Shown: positions 10,318 to 61,600, numbered from the stretch's first letter. The stretch: DNA of 64,000 nt from a virus (IMGVR_UViG_3300036820_000003:32001-96000); one strand, 5' to 3'. The notes: generated from the sequence alone by a model not told the origin. Made by a program: numbers and translations.

Positions 10318-10327
10318 GATTTCCTTC

Positions 10328-13128: not shown

Positions 13129-13266
13129 AGGCTCTTCCTTCCTACCTTTCCTGCGGATCGCTCCTGCGAACCGCACCCGACCTGGCCCTGCCAGGTCGGA
13201 TGCCGCGCTCAGGGGCGGGTGCGCGTGCTGTAAACAGCCTAGCGGTCCCGAGCCCGGGAAACCAGG

Positions 13267-37786: not shown

Positions 37787-37796
37787 GTTTCCTTCC

Positions 37797-42479: not shown

Positions 42480-43703
42480 CTAAGGGAGCGACGGCAGCGT
42501 GACGCCCGCCTCCTGCAGACGGGTTTTGATGTGATTGATCAGATGATACAGATCCCTGCAGTAAACGGACGGATTGTCGAATGATCCGACTCCGTTCTCG
42601 GTCGTCATGTAGCGATTCGGATAGTAGCCTCCTCCGCACACGTCGAAGACGGGACAAGTCTGGCAGACGGCTGACGGAGCGGGAGGCGTGTACCCCGGAT
42701 GGAGGGCTATCTGGTCAAGGGTGGAGGTTCGAACTGAGAGACCTGTGGCGGAGCCTCCGTCCGCTGTGGAGCGGAGAGCGTCCAGCAACTCGGCGGAGCC
42801 GTCGGCGTTCACCGCGAGGGAACGAGATCGAGGCGGAGGGCCGATGAAGCCGGCGCGCACATCGCGTCCCAGCAGACGACTGATGATGATGCGGAAGAGG
42901 CGGATCTGAGGGGCTCCCGGATCCAGGTACCAGGCGTCGAAAATATTTTCGAGCCAATCAGACGTCCCTGCGGCAGGAGGGCGATCCCATGTCTTCAGGC
43001 GAGGCAGCAGATCCAGCATCGGCGGGGACTGCGAGCGCAGGAACCTGTACGTCTCCACGGGATCGGAGTCGAGATTGACCACCGCCAGCAGACCCCCGTA
43101 ACTGGAAGTCCAGCGCGGGGAGCGCAGCAGGGCGAGGGCGTCCAGAACCTGAGACGTCGAGGAGGATCCGCTTTTGAAGGGACGATGCGAATTCTGGGCG
43201 TCGTTGCCGTCCAGGCTCACGCCGAAGCGAATCCCGGCTGGCGCGAGCGTCGTCAGCATGTCCTCGGTGAGGAGCGTCGCGTTGGTCTGCATGCTGAAGG
43301 TGAGAGTGGTTCCGGGGGGCGCCTCCGCTTTGAACGCGCTGACGATGTCGAGGATGCGAGCGGGACCCGCCAGCAGCGGCTCGCCTCCGTGCAGGATGAC
43401 GCGGAAGCGAGGGACGCTGTGGGAGCGCAGGTAGGTGCCCAGACGCGCCGCGAGGGTCAGGTAGATCGAGGGGGATATGAATCTGGGCTGGACGAGCCAG
43501 CTAGTATCCGCGAGGGAGTACATGTAGCAGTAATCGCAGTCCAGATTGCAGCGCGACGCTATCTTGAGCACAAGCTCGCTAAATATCGGAGTTGAAGGGG
43601 GTGTCGGGACTGATCTTCGACTGGAAGAGGGAATCAGGGGCTGAGTCGTTTTCGTCTCTGATCGCGTTGTTGAAGGGGTAGATATCCGGGCTGTCGCTTC
43701 CAC
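42480..43703 (-). CDS. fxsB: FxsB-family cyclophane-forming radical SAM/SPASM peptide maturase
   Basis: LVLKIASRCNLDCDYCYMY, LHGGEPLL, MQTNA, GVSLDG, CQTC...CGGGYY.NRY, FDNPSVYCRDL; GGAGGAG RBS. Confidence 0.88.
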   Translation of the reverse strand: MEATARISTPSTTRSETKTTQPLIPSSSRRSVPTPPSTPIFSELVLKIASRCNLDCDYCYMYSLADTSWLVQPRFISPSIYLTLAARLGTYLRSHSVPRFRVILHGGEPLLAGPARILDIVSAFKAEAPPGTTLTFSMQTNATLLTEDMLTTLAPAGIRFGVSLDGNDAQNSHRPFKSGSSSTSQVLDALALLRSPRWTSSYGGLLAVVNLDSDPVETYRFLRSQSPPMLDLLPRLKTWDRPPAAGTSDWLENIFDAWYLDPGAPQIRLFRIIISRLLGRDVRAGFIGPPPRSRSLAVNADGSAELLDALRSTADGGSATGLSVRTSTLDQIALHPGYTPPAPSAVCQTCPVFDVCGGGYYPNRYMTTENGVGSFDNPSVYCRDLYHLINHIKTRLQEAGVTLPSLP

Positions 43704-47974: not shown

Positions 47975-48291
47975 GCTGGGAGTCGCGTGAGCTGGGAGTC
48001 GTCGGATTTCAAGGAGACCGCTGGTCCACGGCCGACGCCGCGTGGCTGCTGGGAGTGGAGGAGCGGGATGTGCGAGATGCGATTCGGAGGGAGGGGGTGG
48101 AGGCTGTGGGAAAGAGAAAGTCGCTCTGGGGCGGCACGCGGCACGTTAGGGTTTTTCTCGCCGACGACATTCTGAGAGTTTTGGGGATGGGAGTTGAAAA
48201 ATTTTTTTGGAGGGCTGACCTGGGGTTACGCGGTTATTTTTTGGTTTTGCGTTGGCGGAAGGGAGTTTGGTGCTATGTTATGGCATACTAA
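47971..48291 (+). CDS. HTH DNA-binding protein (excisionase/MerR-like)
   Basis: WSTADAAWLLGVEERDVRDAIRR ... RVFLADDI. Confidence 0.65.
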   Translation: MSWESRELGVVGFQGDRWSTADAAWLLGVEERDVRDAIRREGVEAVGKRKSLWGGTRHVRVFLADDILRVLGMGVEKFFWRADLGLRGYFLVLRWRKGVWCYVMAY

Positions 48292-48427
48292 AGCCAGCGG
48301 GGGTTTCATCTCCTGATGCGACTGGCTGGAGTGATCCAGTCCCGCCAGGAAGATTCACCCTGACCCTGTGAATTGGAACGGAAACCGGGACGCCACGCTC
48401 CTACGGGAGCTGACACCGGAGATCTGA

Positions 48428-49138
48428 ATGAACGTGAGGCCCAAGGTCTCAACGGTCGCGTCCGTCGCATTCGTCACGGGAGCCCTGCTAGCCGGGGTTG
48501 CGACCAGCGCATCAGCAAGCTCAGTTGCTAAGACTCAACCCGCTCGCGTCGGAATGCACGCGACGCTCATCGCGGAAGTGACACGCGCGACTGTCACGGG
48601 GAGTCGGGAGTATCGAGTGATCGGGGGCGACACGCTCTCCGAAATCAGTCGGAAGGAATACGGAACCGGCGGATGCTGGCGCGGCATCTGGACGGCGAAT
48701 TCATCCTCGATATCTGATCCCAATCTCATCTACGTCGGTCAGGAACTCACGATTCCCGGCGAGTGCGACAGAGGTGACGGGGGGGGCGTCCGGACTGTCT
48801 CCAAGGTGACGCCTGTGCCCGCGCCCGCGCCCGCGCCCGCGCCCTCTTCCGGAAGCGGGGGATTCTACGATGACGTCCTCAGCTACGGACAGATCGAGGA
48901 GCTGTGGGACGACGCCGGGGGGCCGGGATGGGCGGCTGCGGAGTCAGCTTCGATAGCCGAGTGCGAGAGCGGCGGGAATCGATTCGCGTACAATCCCTCG
49001 GGGGCGACCGGGATCTGGCAGATCCTCGGTCAGGTGACGGACTTCGGTCGGAGTCTCGACGACCCGTGGGTGAACGCAGCGAACGCAGTTTCGAAATTCA
49101 GGGCCTCGGGAGACACATTCGCTCAGTGGGTTTGCTAG
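48428..49138 (+). CDS. Secreted LysM plus lytic-transglycosylase-like protein
   Basis: Signal peptide; Y.V..GDTLSEIS...N......PNLIYVGQEL.IP; IAECESGG...ATGIWQI. Confidence 0.88.
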   Translation: MNVRPKVSTVASVAFVTGALLAGVATSASASSVAKTQPARVGMHATLIAEVTRATVTGSREYRVIGGDTLSEISRKEYGTGGCWRGIWTANSSSISDPNLIYVGQELTIPGECDRGDGGGVRTVSKVTPVPAPAPAPAPSSGSGGFYDDVLSYGQIEELWDDAGGPGWAAAESASIAECESGGNRFAYNPSGATGIWQILGQVTDFGRSLDDPWVNAANAVSKFRASGDTFAQWVC

Positions 49139-49204
49139 CCGCGCGGGATGGGGGTACACTTAGGTGTGTCCCCGTCCCTGCGGGGTAGGACACCCGGAGG
49201 TGTC

Positions 49205-49534
49205 ATGAGAAACTGGCTAAGGGACACGCTAGCCCGAATCGAGCAGAAGGTGGACAAAATCATGTCGCAGCAGGATGACATCAACGCGGACGTGGCAGGC
49301 ATCCAGACGGCGATCGCCGGACTGACCGCCGCTGACGCTCAGCTCGCCACGGACGTGACGGCTATCCAGGCGGCACTCGCGGCGCTTCCCCCGGAGGTGG
49401 ACACGTCGGCGCTTGACGCGGCGGTGGCGTCGCTGGGATCGACCTCGACCGCGTTCACGACGGCAGTCGGCTCGGTCACGGCGCTGGTGCCGGGCGGGAC
49501 GGCCGCGACTACGCCGGTGACGCCGGCATCGTAG
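49205..49534 (+). CDS. Coiled-coil Ala/Thr-rich protein
   Basis: GGAGG RBS before MRNWL. Confidence 0.7.
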   Translation: MRNWLRDTLARIEQKVDKIMSQQDDINADVAGIQTAIAGLTAADAQLATDVTAIQAALAALPPEVDTSALDAAVASLGSTSTAFTTAVGSVTALVPGGTAATTPVTPAS

Positions 49535-49892
49535 GGGCGGCCGTGGTATACTTGGGTTATAGTATGCCAACGGAAGGATGTTACATGGACGTCAAGAGCC
49601 ACGCCAACGGAAACGGCCCGGCATTGCTGAGCTTCGCCAACGGAAATGGGAGGGACGTTGTGAGCAAGACGCAGCGTGACTCCGGATTCTGGATCAGGGA
49701 TGTCCACTGGTGGGTGATGGTGTTATGAGCCCTGCGTTCCAGTACGAAGGGATTCGCGGAGGAGCTAGTACACCGGATCCTCGGAGTATGAACAACGGGA
49801 ACGGACCGATCCAATCGCCTGGAATCCCGGATGAGTTCCGGGTTCACTGGTGGCTGATGGTCTAGTTCGTGCCAGCCCGTCTCATTTGGCAT

Positions 49893-49921
49893 TTGACAAG
49901 TGAGGCGGGCTTTGGTATGCT
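49893..49921 (+). promoter_or_regulatory. Sigma-A-type promoter, leaderless
   Basis: TTGACA-N17-TATGCT, 6 nt before GTG 49928. Confidence 0.8.
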
Positions 49922-49927
49922 CGGAAT

Positions 49928-50641
49928 GTGACGGATGACAAGATTGTCTCGGTTCCGGTCGGGGAACTCAAGTTCTGGCCGGGGAATCCTCGAGTGGGTG
50001 ACCTGGACGCGATCCGGGAGTCGATTGAGGCGCACGGGGTGTACAAGCCTCTGCTGGTGCATCGAGGGACCGGACGAGTCATGGTCGGAAACAATACCCT
50101 GAAGGCCGCCGTGGAACTGGGGATGGAGCGAGTCCCGGTGGTGTACAAGGACGTCGACGATGATGTGGCGCGTCGCATCATGCTGGTCGACAATCGGACG
50201 TCGGATCGCTCGGACTACGACGAGGAACTGCTGCGAGCGGCGCTGCTGGCGGTGGCCGACGATTTCTCCGGGACGGGTTATCACGACGACGACGAGGACG
50301 TCGCGGCGCTGCTGGCCATTGTGATGGCGGCGGACGAGTACAGCTTCGCGGGAGGGGCTGACGAGGAGGAAGTGCTGCTCCTCGACGAGGTGCGAACCGG
50401 AGCTGACTGGGCCGAGCTGCCCCAGCAGGAGGCCGCTCGGGCGGAACGGCAGGCTCAGCAGACTCCCTCGGCCGTCAAGGGGCTGCGCGAGATCATGCTG
50501 GTGTATCCGGTGGACGAGCATCGCGAGATGATTTCCGTGTTGGAAGGGCTCAAGCGGGTGTGGGGGGATCTGCGATATCCGCAGATTGTGGCGCGGGCTC
50601 TGCGGGAGGCGGCCGAGCGCGGCGGCGTGGTAGGCTTGTAA
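49928..50641 (+). CDS. ParB/Srx N-terminal-domain protein
   Basis: L...PGNPR.GD...IRESI..HG...PLLV.......GN....AA..LG...VPV. Confidence 0.88.
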   Translation: MTDDKIVSVPVGELKFWPGNPRVGDLDAIRESIEAHGVYKPLLVHRGTGRVMVGNNTLKAAVELGMERVPVVYKDVDDDVARRIMLVDNRTSDRSDYDEELLRAALLAVADDFSGTGYHDDDEDVAALLAIVMAADEYSFAGGADEEEVLLLDEVRTGADWAELPQQEAARAERQAQQTPSAVKGLREIMLVYPVDEHREMISVLEGLKRVWGDLRYPQIVARALREAAERGGVVGL

Positions 50642-50642
50642 G

Positions 50643-51566
50643 GTGCAAGCTACGGTGCCTGACGACAGGCTGATGGCGGATTATTTTTCGTTCCATCGGA
50701 TTCAGATTGCGAATAGGGACGTCGATCCCGTTTACCCCGTCTTGAAGGCGGTGGGGGACAGGCTGTCGTTGAGCACCGAGGATCGCCTGCGTCTGGTATT
50801 CCTGCATGTGGCCTACTACGACATCGGGTCCGCGCTGACGGCGTTCGAGATAACGGGGGACGTGCACTACTGGTTCAAGTGCACCGAGACTAAACTGCCG
50901 TGCGGAACGGAACGTCGTAGGCATCGCATGGGCGACAACCTGCGCAATCACCTAGCATCTTTGCAGACTAGGGCGTTCGGCTGGCAAGGACTGGAACCGT
51001 GGCTCACGCACGGTCTGGACGATGACGCCCGAGGTAATTGGAAAACGGTGTCAGAGCGACTCATGCAGGTGGACGGAAACGGTCGCTGGGCGGCATTCAA
51101 GACCTGCGAGATGCTCAGGGAAGTGTGCGGGCTGCCGTTGGAGGCCCCGGACATGGGACACGCGAACAGTTCGGGTCCTCGCAAGGGACTGGGGTTGCTG
51201 TTTGCGGAGGCGCGAGTGGCGGGGAACTCGGCTGAGGTGATAGCGGGATTGGATAGGCTGTCGGTTAGGCTGGTCGAGGAGCTGCGGGGGGCCGGGGCCG
51301 AGGCGTCGCTTGCGACCGCGGAGACGACGCTGTGCGACTTTCACAGTATGTGGAATGGCCGGTACTATCCGGGGCTTGATATCGATGTGATGCACGAGCA
51401 GATCGCGATGTCCCCGATGAGCCCGGAGATGCGACGTGAGGCCTATCTGGCGCGCGAGGCGGCGCTGCCCCTGGCTTACCTCGGTGAAGAGGGCGGCTGG
51501 CAGGGCGTCGACGTCAAGCGGAAGCGGATTTACCGGATGACGGGGGAGATTGTCACTCGTGGCTGA
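50643..51566 (+). CDS. Amino acid:DNA transferase (alpha-glutamyl/putrescinyl-thymine pyrophosphorylase type)
   Basis: D.DPVY, ERR.HR, GRWAAFK..E, GPRKGL, ETTLCDF, GRYYPG.DID. Confidence 0.8.
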   Translation: MQATVPDDRLMADYFSFHRIQIANRDVDPVYPVLKAVGDRLSLSTEDRLRLVFLHVAYYDIGSALTAFEITGDVHYWFKCTETKLPCGTERRRHRMGDNLRNHLASLQTRAFGWQGLEPWLTHGLDDDARGNWKTVSERLMQVDGNGRWAAFKTCEMLREVCGLPLEAPDMGHANSSGPRKGLGLLFAEARVAGNSAEVIAGLDRLSVRLVEELRGAGAEASLATAETTLCDFHSMWNGRYYPGLDIDVMHEQIAMSPMSPEMRREAYLAREAALPLAYLGEEGGWQGVDVKRKRIYRMTGEIVTRG

Positions 51567-52434
51567 TGTGGGGGGCTGGACGTTCGGGGCGGAGCTGGAA
51601 TGGCCGGATGTGGACCGGCGGGCCGAGCTGGGGGGAGGCTGGGCGTGGTCGGTGACGGACTACACCGTCGTCAACTCGGACGGGACCGCCAACGATCCGC
51701 GCGGTGAGCTGAATCGCTGGGGCGGGGAGCTGAACACGCCGGTTTGCGGATCGGTCGAGGAGCTGGGCGAGCGCGCGGGAGAGATGCGGGCGCAGTTGAA
51801 GCCTGGTCACAACTACCGGTCGAATCTCCACATTCACGTGGCGGCTCCGGAATTTGCGGACGTCGAAAATCTGAAGAGAATCGCTGAATTCTCGCGTCGG
51901 GAGCTGCCAGGGGCGCTCAAGATGATGGACCCGCTGAACGGGCTTTTCTCGGGTCTGACGGACGAGGCGGAAGTGGCGGGGGCGCGGAAGCGAATGGCGC
52001 ACTCGGAGCGGAGTCGTCACTATTTTGTGTCGGATGCTCGGCACGCTCGTCGGATGGAGGCTCGGGGGATTGAGGAGATGCTGCGAGCCGAGGTTCCGAT
52101 GAGTCGCGAAGGGGCTCCGTGCTGGGCGCTGGCGTCGCGGGAAGCCGTCAATTTGCGTTCGATGCGGAAACACGGGACGATCGAGCTGCGCTGTTTCGCG
52201 GCGGACGGATCGGGCGAGAACGTGTGGGCGGCGGCGAGCTTCAGTCGGGACTGGCTGGCGACGGCGCTTGAGGGAGGCGAGGTGTTCGAGCTTCCCTACT
52301 TCTACTCGCTGCCGATTCAGCCTGCTTTCGAGCTGAAGCTCGAAAGAGGCTGGGAGTGGACGAACCTCAAGCACAATCGTCGGAACGTGGTGCGCGGACG
52401 GCTGGCTGAGATGAGGGGCCTGTGCGAATCGTAG
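51550..52434 (+). CDS. Amidoligase (COOH-NH2 ligase, glutamate-cysteine-ligase-like)
   Basis: TFGAELEW, ELNTP, LHIHV, AVNL, HGTIELRCF. Confidence 0.8.
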   Translation: MSLVADVGGWTFGAELEWPDVDRRAELGGGWAWSVTDYTVVNSDGTANDPRGELNRWGGELNTPVCGSVEELGERAGEMRAQLKPGHNYRSNLHIHVAAPEFADVENLKRIAEFSRRELPGALKMMDPLNGLFSGLTDEAEVAGARKRMAHSERSRHYFVSDARHARRMEARGIEEMLRAEVPMSREGAPCWALASREAVNLRSMRKHGTIELRCFAADGSGENVWAAASFSRDWLATALEGGEVFELPYFYSLPIQPAFELKLERGWEWTNLKHNRRNVVRGRLAEMRGLCES

Positions 52435-52862
52435 CCGTCTGCACGGGGAACGTCGCCCGGAGCCCCGCCCTGGAGTGCCTGCTGCAGGAAGGGCTGGCGG
52501 GGGTGGAAGTGCGCTCGGCGGGGGTGGGCGACAAGGCCGTCGCCGGGCTGCGGATGAAGCCCTACATGCGGATGATCCTGGGGAGAGAGGGTTTCGGCGA
52601 CTTCGCGGAATCCCATCGCTCGTTCGTGCTGCGAGGCGAGGAAGCGATCGCACCGGATCTTTTCGTCGCGGTGAGCCGAGTGCACGTGCGGAAGCTTGGC
52701 GGGATGTTTCCCGAGGTGCCGGTTCTCTTGTGCGATCCGATTATCCCGGATCCGGCTTTCGGCGGGCTGGATGCCTACGAGGAAGCGTGGAACTTGATTC
52801 AGACGGCCTCGGATGATATGATTCGCAGAATCGAATCCGAGGACTGGGGGAGCTGCGAGTGA
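52422..52862 (+). CDS. Low-molecular-weight phosphotyrosine phosphatase / ArsC family protein
   Basis: VCTGNVARS (CX5R) P-loop and IPDP general-acid motif. Confidence 0.88.
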   Translation: MRIVAVCTGNVARSPALECLLQEGLAGVEVRSAGVGDKAVAGLRMKPYMRMILGREGFGDFAESHRSFVLRGEEAIAPDLFVAVSRVHVRKLGGMFPEVPVLLCDPIIPDPAFGGLDAYEEAWNLIQTASDDMIRRIESEDWGSCE

Positions 52863-53701
52863 AGATTCTGGTGGTGGGGGCGGGAATCGCCGGGTCGTGC
52901 GTGGCTCGACTGGGGTCCGAGCGCGGTCACGAGATGAGGGTGATCGCGCGAGGCGATGAGCCGGATTCGCTCGCGGCGACGGCGGTGCTGCGTCGAGGTT
53001 ATCACTCAGGGGGGTCGCTTGAGTCCTGGGACTACGCGATCCAGTGCTATGAGCGCTGGGGCGTTCGAATGGCGAGAGGCGGGGCGGTTTCCAGCTATCG
53101 GAGACTGCTGGCGGAACCTCGTGCTGATGCGGACTGGACCCTGATTGATCCGGCTGCCCCCCTGGTGCAGGCCGATGTGAAAAGGGAAGTGGTGTCGGCG
53201 CATGGCGGCCGGGTGTGGTTCGGACCGGGGGCGGGGGAGGCGGGGGACGCCGTTGTGGTGGCCTGTGGCGCTCGCGGCGGGCTGTTGCGGCCGGCGGGCG
53301 CTGTTGGCGGCGCGATCGTTACCTATGGCGTTACGTGGGTCCACGCGCCGGAGGCTTTGAAGGAGCCCGAGGTTATGAGGGTGTATCAGTACGCCCCTTA
53401 TCGAACTCTGCTGGCGGGTGTGGCCGGAGGAAAGGCGCGCGTCGGTAGTTCCTCGGCTGCGGGAGAGGAAAAGGCGGTGGAGCAGGGGCGGAAGATGCTC
53501 CAGACCGCGTGGGATCTGGGCTGGCTGACGACTCTTGACGAGTGGGAAATGCGAGTGGGGGCGCGTCTGAAGAGTCAGGAAGTCTGGTGGCGCGAAGGCG
53601 ACGGTCACTGGGAAATCGGCGGATTTCATCGAACGGGGTACGCTTTGGCTCCCGGGGCCGCTCGCGATGTGCTGGACGACATCGAGAAGTCAGCTCTGTG
53701 A
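52859..53701 (+). CDS. FAD-dependent oxidoreductase (glycine oxidase/DAO-like)
   Basis: ILVVGAGIAG, AVVVACG, GGFHRTGYALAPG. Confidence 0.82.
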   Translation: MKILVVGAGIAGSCVARLGSERGHEMRVIARGDEPDSLAATAVLRRGYHSGGSLESWDYAIQCYERWGVRMARGGAVSSYRRLLAEPRADADWTLIDPAAPLVQADVKREVVSAHGGRVWFGPGAGEAGDAVVVACGARGGLLRPAGAVGGAIVTYGVTWVHAPEALKEPEVMRVYQYAPYRTLLAGVAGGKARVGSSSAAGEEKAVEQGRKMLQTAWDLGWLTTLDEWEMRVGARLKSQEVWWREGDGHWEIGGFHRTGYALAPGAARDVLDDIEKSAL

Positions 53702-53707
53702 TTTGAT

Positions 53708-53736
53708 TTGACAGGCTCTTTTTTTTACGCTAGATT
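53708..53736 (+). promoter_or_regulatory. Sigma-A-type promoter, leaderless
   Basis: TTGACA-N17-TAGATT, 6 nt before ATG 53743. Confidence 0.8.
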
Positions 53737-53742
53737 TTGCTT

Positions 53743-54315
53743 ATGGATCTCGTTTATCTGGCCGGGGCTCCCGCCGTCGGCAAGTCGACTCTGATGGCCA
53801 GGCTGACTGAGGGCGCTGAGCGGGTGGCTCGAGCTGACGTGAAGCTGGTGCCCTACGACGAGCTGAGGGTTGCGGGCGAGGTTGTCGGGGCGGAGATCGG
53901 GAAGCGTCGGGTGAACTTCCCGGGGACTGATTCGCTTGCGATGAACGCTCTGCCGAACGTCGCTAAATGGCTCGACGCGAAGATGTTCGACGTGGTGTGC
54001 GCGGAGGGGGATCGTCTGACGCACGTGCGATTCTTTGGCTCGGCGGCGGACGCCGGGTACTCGGTGCACGTTTTCCTGCTGCGAGCGCCAATGTCGGTGC
54101 TGGATCGGCGATGCGAGGCGCGAGGGTCGAACCAGAGTCGGAGCTGGCGGCTCAGCCGGGTGACTCTGGGCGAGCGGGTGGCGGCCTGGGCCGAGGCCGA
54201 GGACAGGATCTCGATGCACTACCTCGATTCTCAGAGACCTGTCACGGAGCTGGCCGAGGAAGTGCGACGGGCTGTGCCCGCGATGGAGATTCTGCGTGAG
54301 CGGGTGGCTGGCTGA
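53743..54315 (+). CDS. P-loop nucleotide kinase (putative 5-hydroxymethyluracil DNA kinase)
   Basis: YLAGAPAVGKST, EGDRL, R..RC..RGS.Q; context next to the transferase and TET/JBP genes. Confidence 0.75.
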   Translation: MDLVYLAGAPAVGKSTLMARLTEGAERVARADVKLVPYDELRVAGEVVGAEIGKRRVNFPGTDSLAMNALPNVAKWLDAKMFDVVCAEGDRLTHVRFFGSAADAGYSVHVFLLRAPMSVLDRRCEARGSNQSRSWRLSRVTLGERVAAWAEAEDRISMHYLDSQRPVTELAEEVRRAVPAMEILRERVAG

Positions 54316-55574
54316 TGGCTGCCGCCGCTGTTGTGAGGACCCCGGGAGTGCGACTGGGCTATCGAGTTGCGGACTCCATTATCGAGCGCGACATTGAAGG
54401 TCGGACCTTGGGGGAGGACGACTACGACTGGCTTCTCACGGGCGGACCGCTGATGGTCAGGAGTCCGGAGGGGGCTCCGGTGGCGTGCTATCTGCCAGGG
54501 GTTTTGAAGGGCGTCATGGCCGAGGTCGACGCTTACCGGCTGCTGCATCCCCTGCACACGATGATGACGAACAATCGAGGCAAGGCGTCGGGTACGCGAC
54601 GGATCGCCCGGGGGGACGGGGACGGGACGAGGAGCGACTCCGTCTCGATGTCGAGTCCCACTATCGGGTCGGCGGATCCAGGGTCGGTGTACCGCTACTG
54701 TCGCATGACGGAGTGGACCGGGGCGCATCTGCCGGAGTGGGAGGCGCTGGCTCCCCTGTTCCGGGTGATTGCGAGTCATCTTGAAGAGCGAGTTCCGGAG
54801 CGATACAACGCCCAGATGGAGTACGTCCGGAAGACGAATGAAGCGTGGGTGGTGCCGGGAACGCCGTTCACGACGATCACGGTGAATAACAGTTACTCCA
54901 CCGGGGTGCACAAGGATCAGGGCGATCTGGAGGCCGGGTTCTCGACGCTGGCGTGCGTGCGTCGCGGCGAGTACTCGGGCGGCGTGCTGGTCATGCCGCA
55001 GTATAGGTTCGGCGTGGACATGCAAGACGGTGATCTTTTGCTGATGGACGCGCACCAGTGGCACGGGAACACGCGAATGACGTGCGCCTGCGGCGAGCGG
55101 ATTTTCAATCGATTCTGCGGGGTATGCGGCGCGGAGCGGATTTCGCTGGTGTGCTACTATCGGACTCGGATGGCGGAATGCGGGAGCCCTGCGGACGAGC
55201 TGGAAAGAGCGCAGGTAAACACCGAGAAGCGATCCCAGCCGCGCGTCGGACAGGATATCATTGACGCTGCCGCGTCAGTGATGCCGATTCCGATTGCAAA
55301 TCCTGACCCCGCCCCTGATGACGGGGGGGCTTCAATTGCAACTGTGCCTGCGGCGCCGATTGTCGACGAACTTGAGGCTCCCGCCAAGAGGCGCGGTCGT
55401 CCCAAGAAGCAGGTCGGGGTGCTCGACGTTGAGGTTGAGGTTGAGGCCGCGAAGCCGGAACCTGTCGTCAAGCGTCGGGGTCGGCCGCGCAAGGTCGCTG
55501 AGCCTGATAAGATCGCAGTGGCCAAGGCCGATTTGATGAAGTTTGATCCCGTGACCGGTGAGCCTTTGGAGTGA
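54315..55574 (+). CDS. TET/JBP-family 2OG-Fe(II) dioxygenase with C-terminal AT-hooks
   Basis: FTTITVN, HKD, GG.L, DGD.L..DAH.WHGN, ERISLVCYYR; tail KRRGRPKK and KRRGRPRK. Confidence 0.85.
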   Translation: MAAAAVVRTPGVRLGYRVADSIIERDIEGRTLGEDDYDWLLTGGPLMVRSPEGAPVACYLPGVLKGVMAEVDAYRLLHPLHTMMTNNRGKASGTRRIARGDGDGTRSDSVSMSSPTIGSADPGSVYRYCRMTEWTGAHLPEWEALAPLFRVIASHLEERVPERYNAQMEYVRKTNEAWVVPGTPFTTITVNNSYSTGVHKDQGDLEAGFSTLACVRRGEYSGGVLVMPQYRFGVDMQDGDLLLMDAHQWHGNTRMTCACGERIFNRFCGVCGAERISLVCYYRTRMAECGSPADELERAQVNTEKRSQPRVGQDIIDAAASVMPIPIANPDPAPDDGGASIATVPAAPIVDELEAPAKRRGRPKKQVGVLDVEVEVEAAKPEPVVKRRGRPRKVAEPDKIAVAKADLMKFDPVTGEPLE

Positions 55575-55577
55575 GGA

Positions 55578-56120
55578 GTGAGTGGAATGGGTCGTCGAAC
55601 CGAAACGATGGAACGCGACGCTAAGATGTACTTGCGTCACACCAACAACATCCCGCACGACGCGATCGCGGCTGAGTTCGGGGTGTCGCTTGCTACTGTC
55701 GCGACGGGGATTCGACGGGCCATCCAGGACACCTTCAGGCTGTCGGCTGAGGAAGAGCGCCAGGTCGTGGACGATAGACTTTTGTATTTGGAGCGTCGTC
55801 TGCGGGTGATGGCCTCCAATAAGCACTATCGCGTTTCGGTTTCAGGGAAGGTCGTCGTCGATCCGATGACCGGGGAGCCGTTGCTGGACGACGAGCCGGA
55901 GTATCGGGCTCTGATGGCCATCTCGAAGATCGAGGGGCAGCGCAGCAAGCTTCTCGGACTCGACATGCCGGTGCGTCATCGAGTCGAGATCACCGACAAG
56001 ATGGACGAGGAGATCGAGAAGCTCGCGATGGAGCTTTCGATCCACGGCGCTGGCGAGAAGGTAGAGCCGGAGCTGCCGGTGGGGACGGGAGTCGTTGATG
56101 GTGACGGTAGCGACTCCTGA
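55578..56120 (+). CDS. terS: Terminase small subunit
   Basis: N-terminal HTH; position before terL; R.KLLGLD.P. Confidence 0.75.
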   Translation: MSGMGRRTETMERDAKMYLRHTNNIPHDAIAAEFGVSLATVATGIRRAIQDTFRLSAEEERQVVDDRLLYLERRLRVMASNKHYRVSVSGKVVVDPMTGEPLLDDEPEYRALMAISKIEGQRSKLLGLDMPVRHRVEITDKMDEEIEKLAMELSIHGAGEKVEPELPVGTGVVDGDGSDS

Positions 56121-57792
56121 TCCTGGGGGGGAAGAGCCGGAGAAAGGCGATCTGCCTCCGGATTGGCGGGATCTCAGTCCCGAGGCCAAGAAGGCCCTGC
56201 TGCATAAGCTCAAAGGGAAACACATCTCTTTGGGACTGGGCGGACCGCGCAAGTGGCGGGCTCTGGCGCGACCCAAGCAGCTGAGTCCAGATGATCCGGT
56301 GCATCATCTGCCGGACGGCAACGGGTTCGCCTGCGCGTGCGGGGCGCTGGATAGTAGCTTCAACATCTGGATGTTCATGGCCGGCCGAGGCTGCGGGAAG
56401 ACCTGGGCCGGATCCAACTGGATCATCGAGCAGGCGCTGAAAAACCCGGGGACCATGTGGGCCGTCGTGGCTCCCACCTTCCGCGACGTCCGAGTGACTT
56501 GCTTCGAGGGACCGTCTGGGATACGCCGTCAGCTAGAACCAGGTGAGGAAGACCAATGGCGACGCAACGAGTTGCGACTCGACCTGGTGAACGGCTCGAT
56601 TCTCTACGGGTACTCGGCTGACCAGCCTGAGCGACTTCGCGGGAGTAATCTTTCAGGTGCTTGGTGTGACGAGATGGGCTCGTGGCAATATGAGGAGACC
56701 TGGTACGAAGGGCTGGTTCCCGCTCTGCGTATTGGCGAGCATCCCCGTGTGATGGTAACCACCACTCCTCGTCCCACCAAGCTGGTGCGCGATCTGTACG
56801 GACGTCGCGACGGGACGGTCCACATCACCACCGCCTCGACCTGGGAGAACGCCGCAAACCTTTCCGCCGCAGCTCTTGACGAACTACGTCGTCGGTACGA
56901 GGGAACGCGCCTGGGTCGTCAGGAGCTTGAAGGCGAGCTGCTGGAGGACCTTGAGGGGGCTTTGTGGAAGCGATCCGACATCGACGCCGCGCGAGTGCGG
57001 CTGGGGGATGTGCCGGATCTGATCCGGGTGGTTGTCGGGATTGACCCGGCTGTCACCTCGACCGAAGAGAGTGACGAGACCGGAATCATCGTCGCGGGGG
57101 ATGACGGGCATGGTCACGGCTACGTGCTGGCGGACTACAGTATGAAAGGGTCGCCTGAGGCGTGCATGCGGGAGGCCGTCCGGGCATACAAGCGTCACGG
57201 GGCTGACTGCATTGTCGCGGAGGTGAACAACGGCGGTGACTTCATCGGAGCGGTGGTTCGTGCAGTTGACCCGGATGTGCCATATCACACCGTGCGAGCT
57301 AGCAGGGGTAAAGCTCTCCGAGCTGAGCCTGTTTCTGCTCTTGCTGAGCAACGGAGACTTCACCACGTAGGCAACCTGCCCGAGCTGGAAGATCAATTGT
57401 GCGCCTACGTGCCCGGAATAGGCGACTCGCCTGACCGGATGGACGCGCTGGTCTGGGCGGTCTTCGAGCTCAAGGGATTGAGTCAGGCCTCGTGGCTGTC
57501 GGCCTACGGAGCCTGTCGCTGCTCGGGATGCGACCACGTGTACACCTCGCATCTTAAGGAGTGCCCGCGCTGCCGGACGGCGAATCCGGCGGAGGCTGAG
57601 CGGATTGCGGCTCGGGAGCGAGATGAGCCGACGGAGGAGGAGCCTGTCGTGGGCGGCTGGGCGTCGGTTTATCACCTGCGTCGCTGCGAGCGAGGGCACG
57701 CCTACCCCGAGAAAATGGGGGCCGGGGGATGCCCGCGCTGCCGATCGGACGGACTGGGTTTTTTGAAGTCGGCCGGTCGCGCTGTGCGTTGA
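56095..57792 (+). CDS. terL: Terminase large subunit
   Basis: AGRGCGKT, W.DE, VMVTTTPR, R...ELEGE, VGIDPA, SPDRMDA. Confidence 0.95.
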   Translation: MMVTVATPDPGGEEPEKGDLPPDWRDLSPEAKKALLHKLKGKHISLGLGGPRKWRALARPKQLSPDDPVHHLPDGNGFACACGALDSSFNIWMFMAGRGCGKTWAGSNWIIEQALKNPGTMWAVVAPTFRDVRVTCFEGPSGIRRQLEPGEEDQWRRNELRLDLVNGSILYGYSADQPERLRGSNLSGAWCDEMGSWQYEETWYEGLVPALRIGEHPRVMVTTTPRPTKLVRDLYGRRDGTVHITTASTWENAANLSAAALDELRRRYEGTRLGRQELEGELLEDLEGALWKRSDIDAARVRLGDVPDLIRVVVGIDPAVTSTEESDETGIIVAGDDGHGHGYVLADYSMKGSPEACMREAVRAYKRHGADCIVAEVNNGGDFIGAVVRAVDPDVPYHTVRASRGKALRAEPVSALAEQRRLHHVGNLPELEDQLCAYVPGIGDSPDRMDALVWAVFELKGLSQASWLSAYGACRCSGCDHVYTSHLKECPRCRTANPAEAERIAARERDEPTEEEPVVGGWASVYHLRRCERGHAYPEKMGAGGCPRCRSDGLGFLKSAGRAVR

Positions 57793-57817
57793 CAAGTCGA
57801 GCGAAGTTTGCTAGACT
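57789..57817 (+). promoter_or_regulatory. Sigma-A-type promoter, leaderless
   Basis: TTGACA-N17-TAGACT, 6 nt before ATG 57824. Confidence 0.8.
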
Positions 57818-57823
57818 TGCGGA

Positions 57824-58081
57824 ATGGACAGCCTCTCAGAAGAAGAACGCGAAGCCGCCCGACGTGTTTTCGGGGATGGAAGTCAAGTCTGCTCCTTCTG
57901 CGGAGGCTTCCATCTAAGGGCATGTCCCAGGGTCGCCGAGTTCGAGCTTTACGAGGCGCACGGCGAGGTGGCGGGATCGATCAAGAGAGTGCGATTCTGG
58001 GCCGCTGGCGAGTGGGACGAGAGGTGCGTCGTGTGGCCCGAGGCGATGGCTGAAGGCGAGGAGGAGTCGAATGGAAGCTGA
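57824..58081 (+). CDS. Small zinc-knuckle-like protein
   Basis: CSFCGGFHLRAC. Confidence 0.65.
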   Translation: MDSLSEEEREAARRVFGDGSQVCSFCGGFHLRACPRVAEFELYEAHGEVAGSIKRVRFWAAGEWDERCVVWPEAMAEGEEESNGS

Positions 58082-58262
58082 GAGCGCAGGTGCGGGTGCG
58101 GGCGAGTTCATTCCGGCTCTTCAAACCGGGGCGATCGCTCTGCACGAGAACATGATGTCGTTTATCGCGGCGGGATTCACTCGTGAGGAAAGCCTGCGGA
58201 TCGTCATGATGATGCTAGCCGAGGCGATCCGGAAGGGTGACGGAACGGGGGGAAGCGGATGA
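58071..58262 (+). CDS. Small hypothetical protein
   Basis: AIALHE.M.SFIAAGFTREESLRIV. Confidence 0.65.
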   Translation: MEAESAGAGAGEFIPALQTGAIALHENMMSFIAAGFTREESLRIVMMMLAEAIRKGDGTGGSG

Positions 58263-58594
58263 GCGCTACCGGCGCGGTTCCCATCTCCCGGCTGTCTTTG
58301 CAGTATCTGACCGTGCCGGTGCAGGCGTTCAAGTCCGGAACTGCGTACGATCCGACTGCGGATGTGGTTCAGTTCGCCTTCGTCGACAATGTGGGCTCGG
58401 TTCCCACGTCGGGGATGTGGGTGAGCGGGTCGTGGATCTCTCTTCCGAACTACTCTTATCCTTGGGCGGCGCAGTGCCTGGTCGGTCCCGGAGGATCGAC
58501 GGCTCCGTCTACGGGGACGTACACGGTGTGGGTGCAGATCTTCGACAATCCTGAGATTCCGGTGCTCATCGCCGGGCAGATGCAGGTCAGTTGA
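58259..58594 (+). CDS. Small beta-sandwich (possibly virion) protein
   Basis: GTYTVWVQI.DNPEIPVL.AG. Confidence 0.65.
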   Translation: MSATGAVPISRLSLQYLTVPVQAFKSGTAYDPTADVVQFAFVDNVGSVPTSGMWVSGSWISLPNYSYPWAAQCLVGPGGSTAPSTGTYTVWVQIFDNPEIPVLIAGQMQVS

Positions 58595-58607: not shown

Positions 58608-61600
58608 ATGGCTGGACGTAATTCAACATTGATGGCGGCGAAGTACGTGCCGGGCGGGGCTCGTCCGACCGCCGCACCTCAGGGAGCCGGGGCTCCCTAC
58701 TACGGGATGCTAAGCCCCTTGGCAAATCAGCTGGCGAATGAGCGCGGGTATTGCCTCGGTCCAGACACGCAAGTGCTGTGCTCGGATTTCCAGTGGCGGC
58801 CGGTGATCAGTCTTGCTGAAGGTGACCAGATCATTGGGTTCGATGAATTCCCGGAGCCACACAGCAAGCGTAAGTTCCGTATGTCAACAGTACTCAGCTG
58901 CCCGATCGTGGAACTACCCTCCTACCGGATCACGTTCACTGATGGTCGGCAGGTCACGGCTTCAGCTGAGCACATGTGGCTGGATGGACGATGCAGTCGT
59001 TGGTTGAAGACGAAGAATCTACGTCCTGGTTACAGGATCATGCACCTAGGCACCCCCTGGAAGCAAGACAGGTCGTGGGGCGGAGGCTGGCTTGCAGGGG
59101 CATTTGATGGTGAGGCTAACTTTGCTACTCATTCTGAGAACAGCCATTGCGGTTGGCACATCCAGTTCTCTCAGAACGCTGGAAGTGTCCTCGATCTGGC
59201 AGAACGACTCCTCAAGGAACGCGGGTATGAGACTCGGGTTAAGGCTCCTCAAGATGGTCGAGCAGTTCACCGTCTACTCATTACCGGCGTAGAGGACTGC
59301 TTCCGATTCCTCGGTTCGTGTCAGCCGGTTCGACTGCTGGACAATTCGGCTGCGTGGATCGAAGGTCAGAGCGGCAAGAAGTCCCGTGGAACTGCACGCG
59401 GTCGGGTGTACAACGCTGTCGTAGAGAGCGTTGAGTACCTGGGTGAGCAGGACGTGGTAGCTATCTCCACGTCCACCCGGACGCTGTTCGCCGAAGGTCT
59501 GTACTCGCACAACTCGAACAGCTACGGCCCGTTTCTGCCGAGGCCCGCTCGTACTTTTACAGAGGGTGCGTTCGGGCCGTTCAGTCCGATCCTGCCGGTG
59601 CCGCTGGATGCTCCGGCTGTTGAAGACGGTCAGCCGGATCCTCGACTATGGGAGTACCCGGTCGGGTGGAACCTGCCGGTGGGGCAGCCGGGGACCGAGG
59701 GACTCAAGCTCGTCGACTTCGCTACTCTCAAGACGCTTAGTGACACTTATTCGGTCGCGCGTAGTTGCATCGACCGTCGCAAGTACGAGGTCTGCGGACT
59801 GGACTGGGATATCGTCCCCACGCACGAGGCTTCGAAGGCGTATCAAGGGGACAGGAAAGCGATGCGCGACTTCGGGGAACGAGTCGCCAAGGCTAAGCGA
59901 TTCTTTCGGCATCCCGATCCGGACTATTTTACTTTCTCGGACTTTCTATCGGCTATGCTGGAGGAAGTGTTCGTTTACGACGCTTTGGCAATCGTCATGC
60001 GACCCAAGTGGGGCAAGGGAGTCGGGGCGGGGCTACTGGGTTCCGACCTGGACTGCCTGGAGCTGATCTCGGGTCCGACGATCCGACCTCTGGTCGGGCT
60101 GCACGGAGAGGTGCCGCGTCCGCCTGCTCCCGCGTACCAGCAGTACCTGTACGGCGTTCCGCGCTCGGACTACATGACGATGATCACCCAGCGAGACATC
60201 GACGAGGCCGGAATCGGCGGGTCGGAGCTGCAGAACTTCCGCACCGACCAGCTTATGTACCTGCGCACGACGCCGCGACGGGAAACGCCCTACGGGTTCT
60301 CGCTTACCGAGAAGGCGATCATCCCCATCCTGACCGGACTGCAGAAGCAGGCCTTCCAGTATGACTACTTCCGGGAGGGGACCGTCCCGGCGGTCTACAT
60401 CTCACCCGGGGATGCTTCTATCACCCCGAATCAAATCCGGGAGCTGCAGGACGCCCTTAACGCGATCGCCGGGGACGTGGCGTTCCATCACAAGATCATC
60501 GTTTTGCCACCCGGTTCCAAGACCATGCCGCAGAGGGACGCTCAGCTGGCGGATCAGTTCGACGAGATCGTCATGACCGAGGTCGCGATGGTCTACGACG
60601 TGGACCCGATGAGCCTGGGAATCGTCCCGAAAGTCGCGACTTCGGTGTCGCCTTTCGCCGCGAAGGAGATGGCGCAGGCGTCGGCGTCGGTTCATCAGAG
60701 GACGTCGACTAAGCCTCTGTTGTCTTTTATCACCGACATCTTCAACAACATCCTGCATCGCGTGTGCGGTCAGGACGACATGAAGTTCACCTTCGAGGGG
60801 ATGTCGGAGACCTCGGACGCGGCTGCGACGACTGACCTGGTGGTCAAGCAGGTCCAGTACGGAATCCGGTCGGTCGACGAGGGTCGGGCCGAGCTGGAGC
60901 TGCCGCCGTGGAACATGCCCGAGACCTCGGGTCCTGTCGTGTTCACGCAGATGGGACCGGTCCCGTTCGAGATGGCACCGCAGCTGCTGATGCAACAGCA
61001 GCAGGGCGCGGGTGGGAGCGGAGGGGGAGCCAAGGCCGGGGGAGGGAATTCTTCCGGATCGGGGAAGCGAACGCGGGCTACTTCGACGACTGGTCGCGGT
61101 GATCAGTACGGCGGGCCGGGAGTTCCCCGGCACGGGAACCTGCCGGCTCCTTCTTCGACTCGGATTTCTTCGGACGTTCCGCCGGAGCGGAAGAAGACCC
61201 CGGCTCACGACGCGGCCGAGGGGGCGATGTCGACCGGGAGTTCGAAGCCGGGGGGCGGCCGGGTCGGGGCCTCCAAGGCGGCGGCGGCCGAGCTGGAGGC
61301 GCTTGGTCGTCACTTGCGGAAGGGTCGGGACATTCGCACCTGGAAGGCGGTCAACGTTCCCGGGGCAATTGTCGAAGCGATAGCCGAGGACCTGCAAAAG
61401 GGCCTCTCGTTCGACGAGGCAGTCGGATCTATTCCCGTGTTCGGCGTGGAATGGGTGACCGGAGACACGCTCCCAAAAGCCCGAGGGGTCACTGAGTGGC
61501 CCGGCTGGAAGCACGATCTAGGGTTGGTCGCGGCTTACACCGACCTGCTGCGGAGGATGTTTTCCAAGGCTGACGGGCAAGCCGGGAAGATCCGTGGCGA

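What the first reader, a model, noticed from the sequence alone, without database searches (positions are those of the whole stretch)
49893..55574. Complete post-replicative thymine hypermodification cluster with an amidoligase: candidate new DNA base
Seen: seven adjacent genes just before the terminase (ParB, amino acid:DNA transferase, amidoligase, LMW phosphatase, FAD oxidoreductase, P-loop kinase, TET/JBP dioxygenase). Established: characterised phage thymidine hypermodification runs 5hmU -> 5hmU DNA kinase -> amino acid:DNA transferase, sometimes followed by a flavin-dependent step leaving 5-aminomethyl-dU, which is then acetylated. Those phages obtain 5hmU from dUMP hydroxymethylase. Inference: here TET/JBP oxidises T to 5hmU on DNA, the kinase and transferase attach an amino acid (perhaps Gly), the glycine-oxidase-like enzyme frees an amine, and the ATP-dependent COOH-NH2 ligase acylates it (for example with glutamate) in place of an acetyltransferase. 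I know of no characterised base made by this enzyme set. No dUMP hydroxymethylase is in the window.
Basis: partly seen in the sequence, partly recalled or inferred. Interest (0 to 1): 0.93.

Follow-up and report, generated by a model that had tools for sequence, protein, structure and literature searches.

The report
Phage thymine hypermodification gene cluster
An uncultured 130-kb high-GC phage carries seven tightly packed genes that most likely oxidise thymine in finished DNA, attach glycine, trim it to an aminomethyl group and cap that with an unknown acyl group; the capping uses an ATP-dependent ligase plus a small phosphatase where the one characterised pathway uses an acetyltransferase, so the pathway type is already published but the final base is not known.

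Summary
Seven co-directional, mostly overlapping genes (49928-55574) encode ParB, an amino acid:DNA transferase (AADT), a glutamine-synthetase-like amidoligase, an LMW phosphatase, an FAD enzyme, a 5-hmdU-type DNA kinase and a TET/JBP dioxygenase, directly before the terminase.

The complete genome has no thymidylate-synthase-family enzyme, ThyX, gp48-like acetyltransferase or class-II GATase.

Every step up to 5-aminomethyl-dU rests on a characterised homologue:
- ParB plus TET matches the ParB-dependent T-dioxygenase class (PNAS 2026).
- The kinase and AADT match M6 and PaMx11 enzymes.
- The FAD enzyme is a full-length homologue of PaMx11 gp47/NGTO (hhalign E 4e-56; Foldseek top hit 8z79, TM 0.75-0.78).

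My new comparative result concerns the last step. The amidoligase-phosphatase pair is adjacent in 22 of 24 dereplicated viral lineages and fused in one. In PaMx11-syntenic cassettes, including phage Simon, it sits exactly where acetyltransferase gp48 sits. The acyl donor and the phosphatase's role remain inferred.

The cluster type was already noted in print (Lee 2021, O'Toole 2026), and this scan has found it repeatedly on other DNA. I class it as a new variant of a known kind, of moderate interest.

The parts
49893..49921 (+). Sigma-70-like promoter candidate (TTGACA-17-TATGCT, TG extended) before ParB
   Evidence: 10 of 12 matches. Five sites were found in 48000-58500 against 1.4 +/- 1.3 in shuffles. 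This is a consensus match only.
49928..50641 (+). ParB-like protein (237 aa): N-terminal nucleotide-binding domain, acidic linker, C-terminal domain; likely activator of the dioxygenase
   Evidence: ParB_N 1.3e-7 at residues 25-89; phrog_723, 2.9e-37. It is conserved in relatives and in mycobacteriophage Phelemich gp1. The role is taken from PMC13229309 and is inferred here.
50643..51566 (+). Amino acid:DNA transferase (AADT / aGPT-Pplase2), probably glycine-specific
   Evidence: PF18724, 7.3e-17. tblastn hits M6 gp51 at E 8e-4 and actinophage homologues at 42-43% identity. The family HMM hits M6 gp51 at 234 bits and PaMx11 gp46 at 202 bits. PUGT residues D24, Y51, E92, R94, W146, K150, E243, T244, C247 and D262 are conserved; Y47 is H and E265 is V.
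51550..52434 (+). Glutamine-synthetase-like carboxylate-amine ligase (Amidoligase_2 family); the likely start is GTG at 51559 (291 aa)
   Evidence: Conserved residues are E15/E17/D20, E60/N62, H94/H96, R148, R197/N201/R203 and E212/R214. The database copy P0002 is 291 aa long.
52422..52862 (+). LMW-PTP-fold phosphatase with an intact catalytic set; near-obligate partner of the amidoligase
   Evidence: LMWPc 4.8e-9. C7, G9, N10, R13, S14, D110 and P111 are invariant in 22 aligned members and 97-100% conserved in 76. The family profile hits solved LMW-PTPs, Wzb and YwlE at E 1e-27 to 1e-18. It lies next to the amidoligase in 22 of 24 dereplicated lineages. It is fused to the amidoligase in L013.
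52859..53701 (+). FAD-dependent N-alpha-glycinylthymidine lyase/oxidase homologue (gp47/NGTO family, 280 aa)
   Evidence: hhalign of family alignment A2 against PaMx11 gp47: probability 100%, E 4.2e-56, 271 columns. The AF2 model has pLDDT 91.3. The Foldseek top hits are 8z79 and 8z2o (gp47/NGTO), E 4e-17, TM 0.75-0.78. The GxGxxG and APY motifs are conserved.
53708..53736 (+). Second sigma-70-like promoter candidate (TTGACA-17-TAGATT) in the only intergenic gap, before the kinase
   Evidence: Consensus match only.
53737..54315 (+). P-loop 5-hmdU DNA kinase homologue (192 aa)
   Evidence: Ploopntkinase3, 6.5e-30. The family HMM hits PaMx11 gp49 at 144 bits and M6 gp54 at 82 bits. A Walker A motif, GAPAVGKST, is present.
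54315..55574 (+). TET/JBP Fe(II)/2OG dioxygenase (419 aa) with a Cys4 insert and a roughly 107-aa C-terminal tail that carries two AT-hooks
   Evidence: Tet_JBP 7.2e-22. H199, D201, H250 and R275 are invariant among ParB-linked relatives. AT-hooks KRRGRPKK and KRRGRPRK start at residues 358 and 386.
55578..57792 (+). Context: small terminase-like HTH protein and large terminase immediately downstream
   Evidence: The same junction is found in L003-L005 and in Phelemich.

Best explanation
This is a post-replicative thymidine hypermodification operon. The proposed order of reactions is:

1. The TET/JBP dioxygenase, activated by the ParB-like protein, hydroxylates a subset of thymines in duplex phage DNA to 5-hmdU.
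2. The P-loop kinase phosphorylates the hydroxymethyl group, giving 5-PmdU.
3. The AADT displaces the phosphate with the amine of glycine, giving N-alpha-GlyT.
4. The gp47/NGTO-type flavoenzyme oxidises the N-C-alpha bond, leaving 5-aminomethyl-dU (5-NmdU).
5. The GS-like amidoligase uses ATP to join a free carboxylic acid to that amine. It takes the role of the acetyltransferase of the PaMx11 pathway.
6. The co-inherited LMW phosphatase removes a phosphate that belongs to this last step, most simply one carried by the acyl donor.

The product would be an undescribed 5-(N-acylaminomethyl)uracil that shields the DNA from host nucleases.

Steps 1-4 rest on homology to characterised enzymes. Steps 5 and 6 are inferred from gene substitution and co-occurrence. 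None of the steps was shown for this phage.
For: Family assignments.

No other 5hmU source, acetyltransferase or GATase is found in the complete genome.

ParB-dependent phage T-dioxygenases linked to kinases and AADTs were demonstrated in vivo and in vitro (PMC13229309). The window TET keeps the HxD...H...R residues.

The kinase, AADT and FAD families hit the characterised M6 and PaMx11 enzymes.

The AADT substrate-pocket signature is close to that of the glycine transferases: HYEDV against YYEDE. The GATase-linked AADTs carry YYDYR instead.

The amidoligase is a GS/GCL-fold ligase.

Substitution evidence: in loci L053, L083, L038, L010, L036 and in phage Simon the order is gp46 - gp47 - amidoligase - LMWP - gp49 - gp50 - gp51. 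These genes are 36-52% identical to their PaMx11 counterparts, and no gp48 is present.

The FAD enzyme and the GATase never co-occur with the pair (11, 5 and 0 of 24 lineages). Closely related amidoligases switch between the two partners. This fits two alternative routes to a DNA-tethered amine.

The LMWP follows the amidoligase, not the kinase. PaMx11 and Phelemich have the kinase and the AADT but neither the amidoligase nor the LMWP.

The seven-gene order is conserved in L003-L005.
Against: No chemistry was measured, and the phage is uncultured.

The window FAD enzyme is only about 20-28% identical to gp47, so a shifted substrate is possible.

AADT specificity cannot be read from sequence; two of the five pocket residues differ.

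8 of 24 amidoligase lineages have neither the FAD enzyme nor the GATase nearby. In those the ligase must work on some other tethered group, so 5-NmdU need not be its universal substrate.

GS-like ligases could equally activate the carboxylate of N-alpha-GlyT.

A ligase reaction in itself needs no phosphatase, so the LMWP role is a guess.

In vitro, ParB-dependent 5mYOX176 also oxidised 5mC (PMC13229309). The genome has a small C5-methyltransferase-like gene 73 kb away.
Confidence: 0.55

Rival explanations
1. Same front end, but the amidoligase activates the free carboxylate of the DNA-bound amino acid (N-alpha-GlyT) and joins an amine to it (ammonia, a polyamine or a second amino acid). The product would be an amide or a dipeptide-like side chain. 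The flavoenzyme would act on a different bond or at other sites.
For: GS-like ligases activate carboxylates as acyl phosphates (established). In 5 of 24 lineages, including the most abundant one, the pair sits beside a class-II GATase, a classical ammonia donor for amidation. L029 has AADT - amidoligase - LMWP - kinase with neither the FAD enzyme nor a GATase.
Against: In this window a gp47/NGTO homologue is present. Its known reaction removes exactly that carboxylate, so amidating it first would be futile. There is no GATase in the genome. The pair replaces the 5-NmdU acetyltransferase position for position.
Confidence: 0.2
2. The amidoligase and the phosphatase act on free metabolites. They would build and dephosphorylate the small-molecule nucleophile that the AADT then attaches to 5-PmdU.
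For: The pair is linked to an AADT in most lineages. Amidoligase_2 relatives also occur in a non-thymine context, next to 7-deazaguanine genes in Vibrio phage 2.275.O. AADTs accept varied nucleophiles: glycine, serine and putrescine (PMC8989533).
Against: With an NGTO-type lyase downstream, whatever is attached through an alpha-amine would be cut back to 5-NmdU. The window AADT keeps most of the glycine-transferase pocket. An amidoligase-kinase fusion (P0056) and an amidoligase-LMWP fusion (L013) suggest action alongside the DNA-acting enzymes.
Confidence: 0.1
3. The dioxygenase works on 5-methylcytosine made by the phage's small C5-methyltransferase-like protein. The cluster would then hypermodify cytosine.
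For: A 223-aa protein at genome 8423-9094 carries FxGxG, PC and ENV motifs (PF00145, 25 bits). 5mYOX176 oxidised 5mC and T comparably in vitro (PMC13229309).
Against: The gene lies 73 kb from the cluster. Five related records that carry the ParB/TET/kinase/AADT/FAD set, including the complete Phelemich genome, have no PF00145 match. The kinase, the AADT and NGTO are characterised on uracil derivatives only.
Confidence: 0.05

Closest known systems
Pseudomonas phage PaMx11 5-acetylaminomethyl-dU pathway (gp46 glycine:DNA transferase/PUGT, gp47 FAD lyase/NGTO, gp48 acetyltransferase, gp49 5-hmdU DNA kinase; PMC8989533, PMC11472151)
   Same: Homologous kinase, AADT and flavoenzyme, and the same chemical logic up to 5-NmdU. 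Intermediate metavirome cassettes and phage Simon are syntenic with gp45-gp53.
   Different: 5-hmdU comes from oxidation of T in DNA by TET/JBP plus ParB, not from a dUMP hydroxymethylase. There is no acetyltransferase. An ATP-dependent GS-like ligase plus an LMW phosphatase takes its place, so the final base should differ.
ParB-dependent phage T-dioxygenases (5mYOX clade C1, e.g. 5mYOX176/ParB176; O'Toole et al. 2026, PMC13229309)
   Same: A TET_JBP enzyme with a C-terminal tail, co-encoded with a short ParB that lacks an evident DNA-binding domain. It is linked to kinase and AADT genes, with no neighbouring C5-methyltransferase.
   Different: That paper lists GATases, kinases and AADTs as partners. 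Its text does not mention an amidoligase, an FAD enzyme or a phosphatase. Here ParB and TET are separated by five genes, and the window TET alone carries two AT-hooks. Clade membership was not tested.
Actinophage five-gene clusters: Mycobacterium phages Phelemich and Reprobate gp1-gp5, and Rhodococcus phage Tonitrus (PMC11955845)
   Same: ParB, TET (annotated there as queuine tRNA-ribosyltransferase), AADT, FAD enzyme (39% identical) and kinase (annotated there as small terminase), directly before TerL. Tonitrus has ParB, TET, AADT and kinase.
   Different: They lack the amidoligase-LMWP pair, so they would stop at 5-NmdU or earlier. The window phage has the pair inserted between the AADT and the FAD enzyme.
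Metavirome TET_JBP - GATase - amidoligase - LMWP - AADT - kinase operons (noted in Lee et al. 2021; the abundant lineage)
   Same: The same amidoligase-LMWP pair (28-31% identity), kinase, AADT and TET.
   Different: They have a GATase in place of the FAD enzyme, and the two never occur together. They have no ParB. Their AADT pocket signature is YYDYR instead of the glycine-type.

Membership tests
Kinase/AADT-type thymidine hypermodification cluster (Lee et al. 2018, 2021) | 5-hmdU DNA kinase homologue | tested here: met
   PF18751, 6.5e-30. The family HMM hits PaMx11 gp49 at 144 bits and M6 gp54 at 82 bits.
Kinase/AADT-type thymidine hypermodification cluster (Lee et al. 2018, 2021) | Clade-2 aGPT-Pplase/AADT with DNA- and metal-binding residues | tested here: met
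   PF18724, 7.3e-17. M6 gp51 is hit directly at E 8e-4. D24, R94, W146, K150, E243, T244 and C247 are conserved.
Kinase/AADT-type thymidine hypermodification cluster (Lee et al. 2018, 2021) | A source of 5-hmdU (dUMP hydroxymethylase or TET_JBP) | tested here: met
   Tet_JBP is present. No PF00303 or ThyX match in the genome.
Kinase/AADT-type thymidine hypermodification cluster (Lee et al. 2018, 2021) | Hypermodified thymidine in virion DNA | not testable with these tools
   The phage is uncultured and no nucleoside data exist.
ParB-dependent T-dioxygenase (5mYOX clade C1) | 2OG/Fe(II) residues HxD...H...R in a TET_JBP domain | tested here: met
   H199, D201, H250 and R275 are invariant in nine ParB-linked sequences.
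ParB-dependent T-dioxygenase (5mYOX clade C1) | Co-encoded short ParB (NBD plus CTD, no DNA-binding domain) | tested here: met
   A 237-aa ParB_N protein lies in the same operon. In relatives L007, L039, L009 and Phelemich, ParB is directly next to TET. The absence of a DNA-binding domain is judged only from its size and the lack of other Pfam hits.
ParB-dependent T-dioxygenase (5mYOX clade C1) | Placement in clade C1, and ParB-dependent activity on T in dsDNA | not tested
Activity needs experiments.
gp47/NGTO N-alpha-GlyT FAD-dependent lyase | Full-length homology and fold of the short (about 285 aa) DAO-like enzyme | tested here: met
   hhalign probability 100%, E 4.2e-56, 271 of 286 columns. 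Foldseek hits 8z79 and 8z2o at E 4e-17, TM 0.75-0.78, ahead of glycine oxidases at about 1e-12.
gp47/NGTO N-alpha-GlyT FAD-dependent lyase | FAD-binding GxGxxG and base-contact residues (W51, Y180, Q182 of NGTO) | tested here: inconclusive
   G7, G9, G12 and the APY motif (Y181, equivalent to Y180) are conserved. W51 aligns with Y48 and Q182 with T183.
Amidoligase_2 / GS-like carboxylate-amine ligase | Pfam PF12224 above the gathering score | tested here: inconclusive
   The window protein scores 15.9 bits against a 22-bit cut-off. 21 of 31 homologues at 29-70% identity match, best 7e-9.
Amidoligase_2 / GS-like carboxylate-amine ligase | GS/GCL catalytic fold with conserved acidic, His and Arg positions | tested here: met
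   pLDDT 93.7. VIA Z is 11.0 (1tt4), 10.7 (YbdK, 1r8g) and 10.6 (GCL, 2gwc), and about 10 for many GS chains. E15/E17, E60, H94/H96, R203 and E212/R214 are conserved. Mapping these residues to GS metal sites is inferred.
LMW protein-tyrosine phosphatase fold | CX5R(S/T) P-loop and DP general acid | tested here: met
   C7, R13, S14, D110 and P111 are invariant. The profile hits solved LMW-PTPs at E 1e-27. The substrate is unknown.
PaMx11 5-AcNmdU pathway | gp48 GNAT acetyltransferase and a dUMP hydroxymethylase | tested here: not met
   No gp48 relative and no PF00303 match in the complete genome. The cluster works like the PaMx11 pathway up to 5-NmdU but is not a member of it.

The most novel reading that the evidence does not exclude
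The amidoligase-LMW phosphatase pair is a two-enzyme capping module. It joins a phosphorylated carboxylic acid to 5-aminomethyl-uracil in duplex DNA and then removes the phosphate. The result would be an undescribed N-acyl-aminomethyl-uracil base. It would also be the first LMW-PTP-fold enzyme, and the first GS-like ligase, acting on a DNA-tethered substrate.
Probability: 0.25. Interest if true: 0.75.

Novelty: new variant of a known kind. Interest (0 to 1): 0.55.

Why it matters
Phage DNA hypermodifications defeat restriction and other nucleases, and they supply enzymes for DNA labelling. Only a handful of thymidine hypermodifications have a known structure and pathway.

This cluster combines a fully post-replicative start (ParB-activated T oxidation) with an uncharacterised ATP-dependent capping step that recurs in many viral lineages. 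Solving one member would name a new base. It would also assign functions to a widespread Amidoligase_2 subfamily and to a phosphatase of a fold known mainly from protein dephosphorylation.

The comparative result is a concrete, testable hypothesis: the pair replaces gp48, and the FAD enzyme and the GATase are mutually exclusive partners. The general idea is already in print, however, and this scan has met it repeatedly.

Tried and rejected
Searches that found nothing:
- Megablast of the region against 50,697 phage records gave no match.
- A profile of the amidoligase family against PDB sequences gave no hit even at E 10, so the fold had to be shown by structure prediction.
- A scan of genome contigs found only six relatives, all in MAGs and none close, so it gave no host information.

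Tools that gave no result:
- Complex prediction of amidoligase plus LMWP, after several unreachable attempts, returned 'no answer' with a score of 0.00. This is evidence neither for nor against binding.
- Iyer et al. 2013 (NAR), which as far as I recall first predicted TET/JBP-kinase-aGPT-Pplase systems in actinophages, is not held in the library. That statement rests on memory.

Ideas considered and rejected:
- The radical SAM gene at 42480-43703 as an M6 gp53-like isomerase belonging to the pathway. It is an FxsB/YhhB-type peptide maturase with no similarity to gp53.
- The LMWP as a recycler of unreacted 5-PmdU. I consider this less likely, because phages with the same kinase and AADT but no amidoligase (PaMx11, M6, Phelemich) lack it.
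- My first impression that the FAD enzyme is a rare partner of the amidoligase (15 of 80 loci). This was an artefact of one abundant lineage. After dereplication the FAD enzyme is the commonest partner, at 11 of 24 lineages.

Full report
**Setting.** The window is bases 32001-96000 of a 129,940-bp IMG/VR virus record with direct terminal repeats, rated complete. G+C is about 64%. The closest cultured homologues of the cluster's AADT and FAD enzyme are, however, in Gordonia, Mycobacterium, Rhodococcus and Microbacterium phages.

**Observation.** Seven + strand ORFs run from 49928 to 55574. Neighbouring genes overlap by 1-17 nt or lie 1-3 nt apart. The exception is a 35-nt gap before the kinase that holds a sigma-70-like site.

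Pfam and PHROGs identify six of the seven proteins: ParB_N, ADDT (PF18724, 7.3e-17), LMWPc, a DAO-type FAD N-terminus, Ploopntkinase3 (6.5e-30) and Tet_JBP (7.2e-22). A small HTH protein and TerL follow.

The third gene is sub-threshold for Amidoligase_2 on its own (E 0.012). Three results settle its identity:
- It has 57 homologues, and 21 of 31 aligned ones hit PF12224.
- Its AF2 model is confident (pLDDT 93.7).
- Fold searches return only glutamine synthetase, YbdK and glutamate-cysteine ligase relatives: Foldseek E 8e-4; VIA Z 11.0, 10.7 and 10.6.

The conserved E-x-E, E-x-N, H-x-H and E-x-R strands fit that superfamily.

**Conservation.** Three other viral contigs (L003-L005) carry the same seven genes in the same order before TerS/TerL, at 39-74% identity. 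Mycobacterium phages Phelemich and Reprobate start their genomes with ParB, TET, AADT, FAD enzyme and kinase, then TerL. In those records the TET is annotated as queuine tRNA-ribosyltransferase and the kinase as small terminase. That is the same core without the amidoligase and the phosphatase. Rhodococcus phage Tonitrus was described with a similar set (PMC11955845).

**The front end.**
- The whole genome lacks thymidylate-synthase-family and ThyX genes, so 5-hmdU cannot come from the nucleotide pool.
- O'Toole et al. 2026 (PMC13229309) showed that phage TET/JBP enzymes of a ParB-associated subclass hydroxylate T in duplex DNA and need their ParB. These enzymes are 'consistently linked' to kinases and AADTs.
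- The window TET keeps H199, D201, H250 and R275 and has a roughly 107-aa tail after the catalytic core.
- A small C5-methyltransferase-like gene exists 73 kb away. Five related records with the cluster have none, so T is the likely substrate.

**Kinase, AADT and flavoenzyme.** HMMs built from the window proteins and their metavirome relatives hit the characterised enzymes strongly: M6 gp51 at 234 bits, PaMx11 gp46 at 202, PaMx11 gp49 at 144, M6 gp54 at 82 and PaMx11 gp47 at 257 bits.

The window AADT conserves the metal- and DNA-contact residues of PUGT. Its substrate-pocket signature, HYEDV, is close to the YYEDE of both glycine transferases (residues from PMC11472151).

The FAD enzyme aligns end to end with gp47 (hhalign E 4.2e-56). 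Its model (pLDDT 91.3) has the gp47/NGTO crystal structures as top hits (8z79 and 8z2o, TM 0.75-0.78), ahead of the glycine oxidases. The route T, 5-hmdU, 5-PmdU, N-alpha-GlyT, 5-NmdU is therefore well founded by homology.

**The last step.** A pattern scan of IMG/VR returned 80 loci with amidoligase relatives. I screened them with iterated HMMs and dereplicated them at 60% identity into 24 lineages.

| Feature near the amidoligase | Lineages (of 24) |
|---|---|
| LMW phosphatase adjacent (21 downstream, 1 upstream) | 22 |
| gp47-type FAD enzyme | 11 |
| Class-II GATase (Pfam) | 5 |
| FAD enzyme and GATase together | 0 |
| Neither FAD enzyme nor GATase | 8 |
| TET | 7 |
| dUMP-hydroxymethylase-like gene | 11 |
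| TET and dUMP-hydroxymethylase-like gene together | 0 |

- One ORF fuses the two domains: L013, amidoligase at residues 109-399 and LMWP at 412-551. Another protein fuses the amidoligase to the kinase (P0056).
- An AADT and a kinase accompany the pair in most lineages.
- On the amidoligase tree the window's clade is entirely FAD-linked. Elsewhere, sister sequences differ in having the FAD enzyme or the GATase.

The most telling result is synteny. In L053, L083, L038, L010, L036 and in phage Simon (PQ683277.1) the cassette matches PaMx11 gp45-gp53, with 36-52% identity for gp46-gp51. The only difference is that the amidoligase-LMWP pair stands where acetyltransferase gp48 stands. The window genome has no gp48 relative and no GATase.

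The simplest reading is that the pair does gp48's job by other chemistry: it acylates the amine of 5-NmdU using ATP and a free acid. The FAD enzyme and the GATase then look like alternative ways to provide a tethered amine. This agrees with the distinct AADT pocket (YYDYR) in the GATase-linked loci.

**The phosphatase.** Its C-x5-R-S loop and DP acid are invariant, and its nearest solved relatives are LMW-PTPs, Wzb and YwlE. It travels with the amidoligase, not with the kinase: PaMx11, M6 and Phelemich have the kinase but no LMWP. A role in the capping step, for example removing a phosphate carried by the acyl donor, is therefore more likely than recycling of 5-PmdU. This is inference only.

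**What is known and what is new.** Lee et al. 2021 (PMC8989533) already reported metavirome contigs that combine a 5-hmdU kinase, an AADT, flavoenzymes, 'amidoligase and glutaminotransferase' genes and TET_JBP in place of a dUMP hydroxymethylase. No paper in the library assigns a function to the amidoligase or mentions the phosphatase partner.

This scan has flagged the same kind of cluster, and the amidoligase-phosphatase pair, on several other genomes. Those are unchecked notes, and I reached the pairing independently here.

The window's cluster is a new variant of a known kind. It joins an actinophage-type ParB/TET start and a glycine/NGTO middle to an amidoligase-LMWP end. Its product is unknown.

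**Verdict.**
- Confidence that this is a post-replicative thymidine hypermodification operon: about 0.9.
- Confidence that it passes through N-alpha-GlyT and 5-NmdU: about 0.7.
- Confidence that the amidoligase acylates 5-NmdU with the LMWP acting in the same step: about 0.5.
- Interest: 0.55.

Noticed in passing
window 42480-43703 (-): A phage-encoded FxsB/YhhB-type cyclophane-forming radical SAM/SPASM peptide maturase (TIGR04269, 318 bits). It is unrelated to the M6 gp53 isomerase.
   Followed up: partly
window 58608-62957 (+): A single 1449-aa ORF that combines a portal, a LAGLIDADG-like segment (residues 160-235, possibly an intein), a Mu F-like domain and a NUDIX domain.
   Followed up: no
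L003 12508-15315; L005 12118-14859: The TerL genes of two relatives carry an in-frame insert of about 1 kb after roughly residue 100 of the window's TerL. It looks like an intein. The window's TerL has no such insert.
   Followed up: no
window 54315-55574, TET residues 358-393: Two canonical AT-hooks (KRRGRPKK and KRRGRPRK) lie in the C-terminal tail of the dioxygenase, in a 64% G+C genome. The tails of the relatives lack them. A Cys4 (CxC...CxxC) insert lies between the distal His and the 2OG Arg.
   Followed up: partly
genome 8423-9094 (L002 1492-2163), outside the window: A 223-aa mini C5-methyltransferase-like protein with FxGxG, PC and ENV motifs, next to a DUF6378 protein and a dCMP deaminase.
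   Followed up: partly
L093 (Vibrio phage 2.275.O, MG592671.1) 8866-9978: A distant amidoligase relative (29% identity) sits beside QueF-like, QueC-like, Ntn-hydrolase and GTP cyclohydrolase I genes. This ligase family may therefore also tailor 7-deazaguanine bases.
   Followed up: no
L092 (phage Simon, PQ683277.1) 5738-13543: An unannotated sewage phage record carries the PaMx11-like cassette with the amidoligase-LMWP pair in place of gp48. It is a possible experimental handle.
   Followed up: yes
L006 (Phelemich NC_022063.1) 810-1673 and 3330-3869: The GenBank product names 'queuine tRNA-ribosyltransferase' (gp2) and 'terminase small subunit' (gp5) are most likely wrong. These proteins match the TET/JBP family HMM (221 bits) and the 5-hmdU kinase family HMM (119 bits). 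M6 gp54 and PaMx11 gp49 carry the same 'terminase small subunit' label.
   Followed up: yes
window 36482-37969 (-): A 495-aa family-2 glycosyltransferase. It is not linked to the cluster.
   Followed up: no
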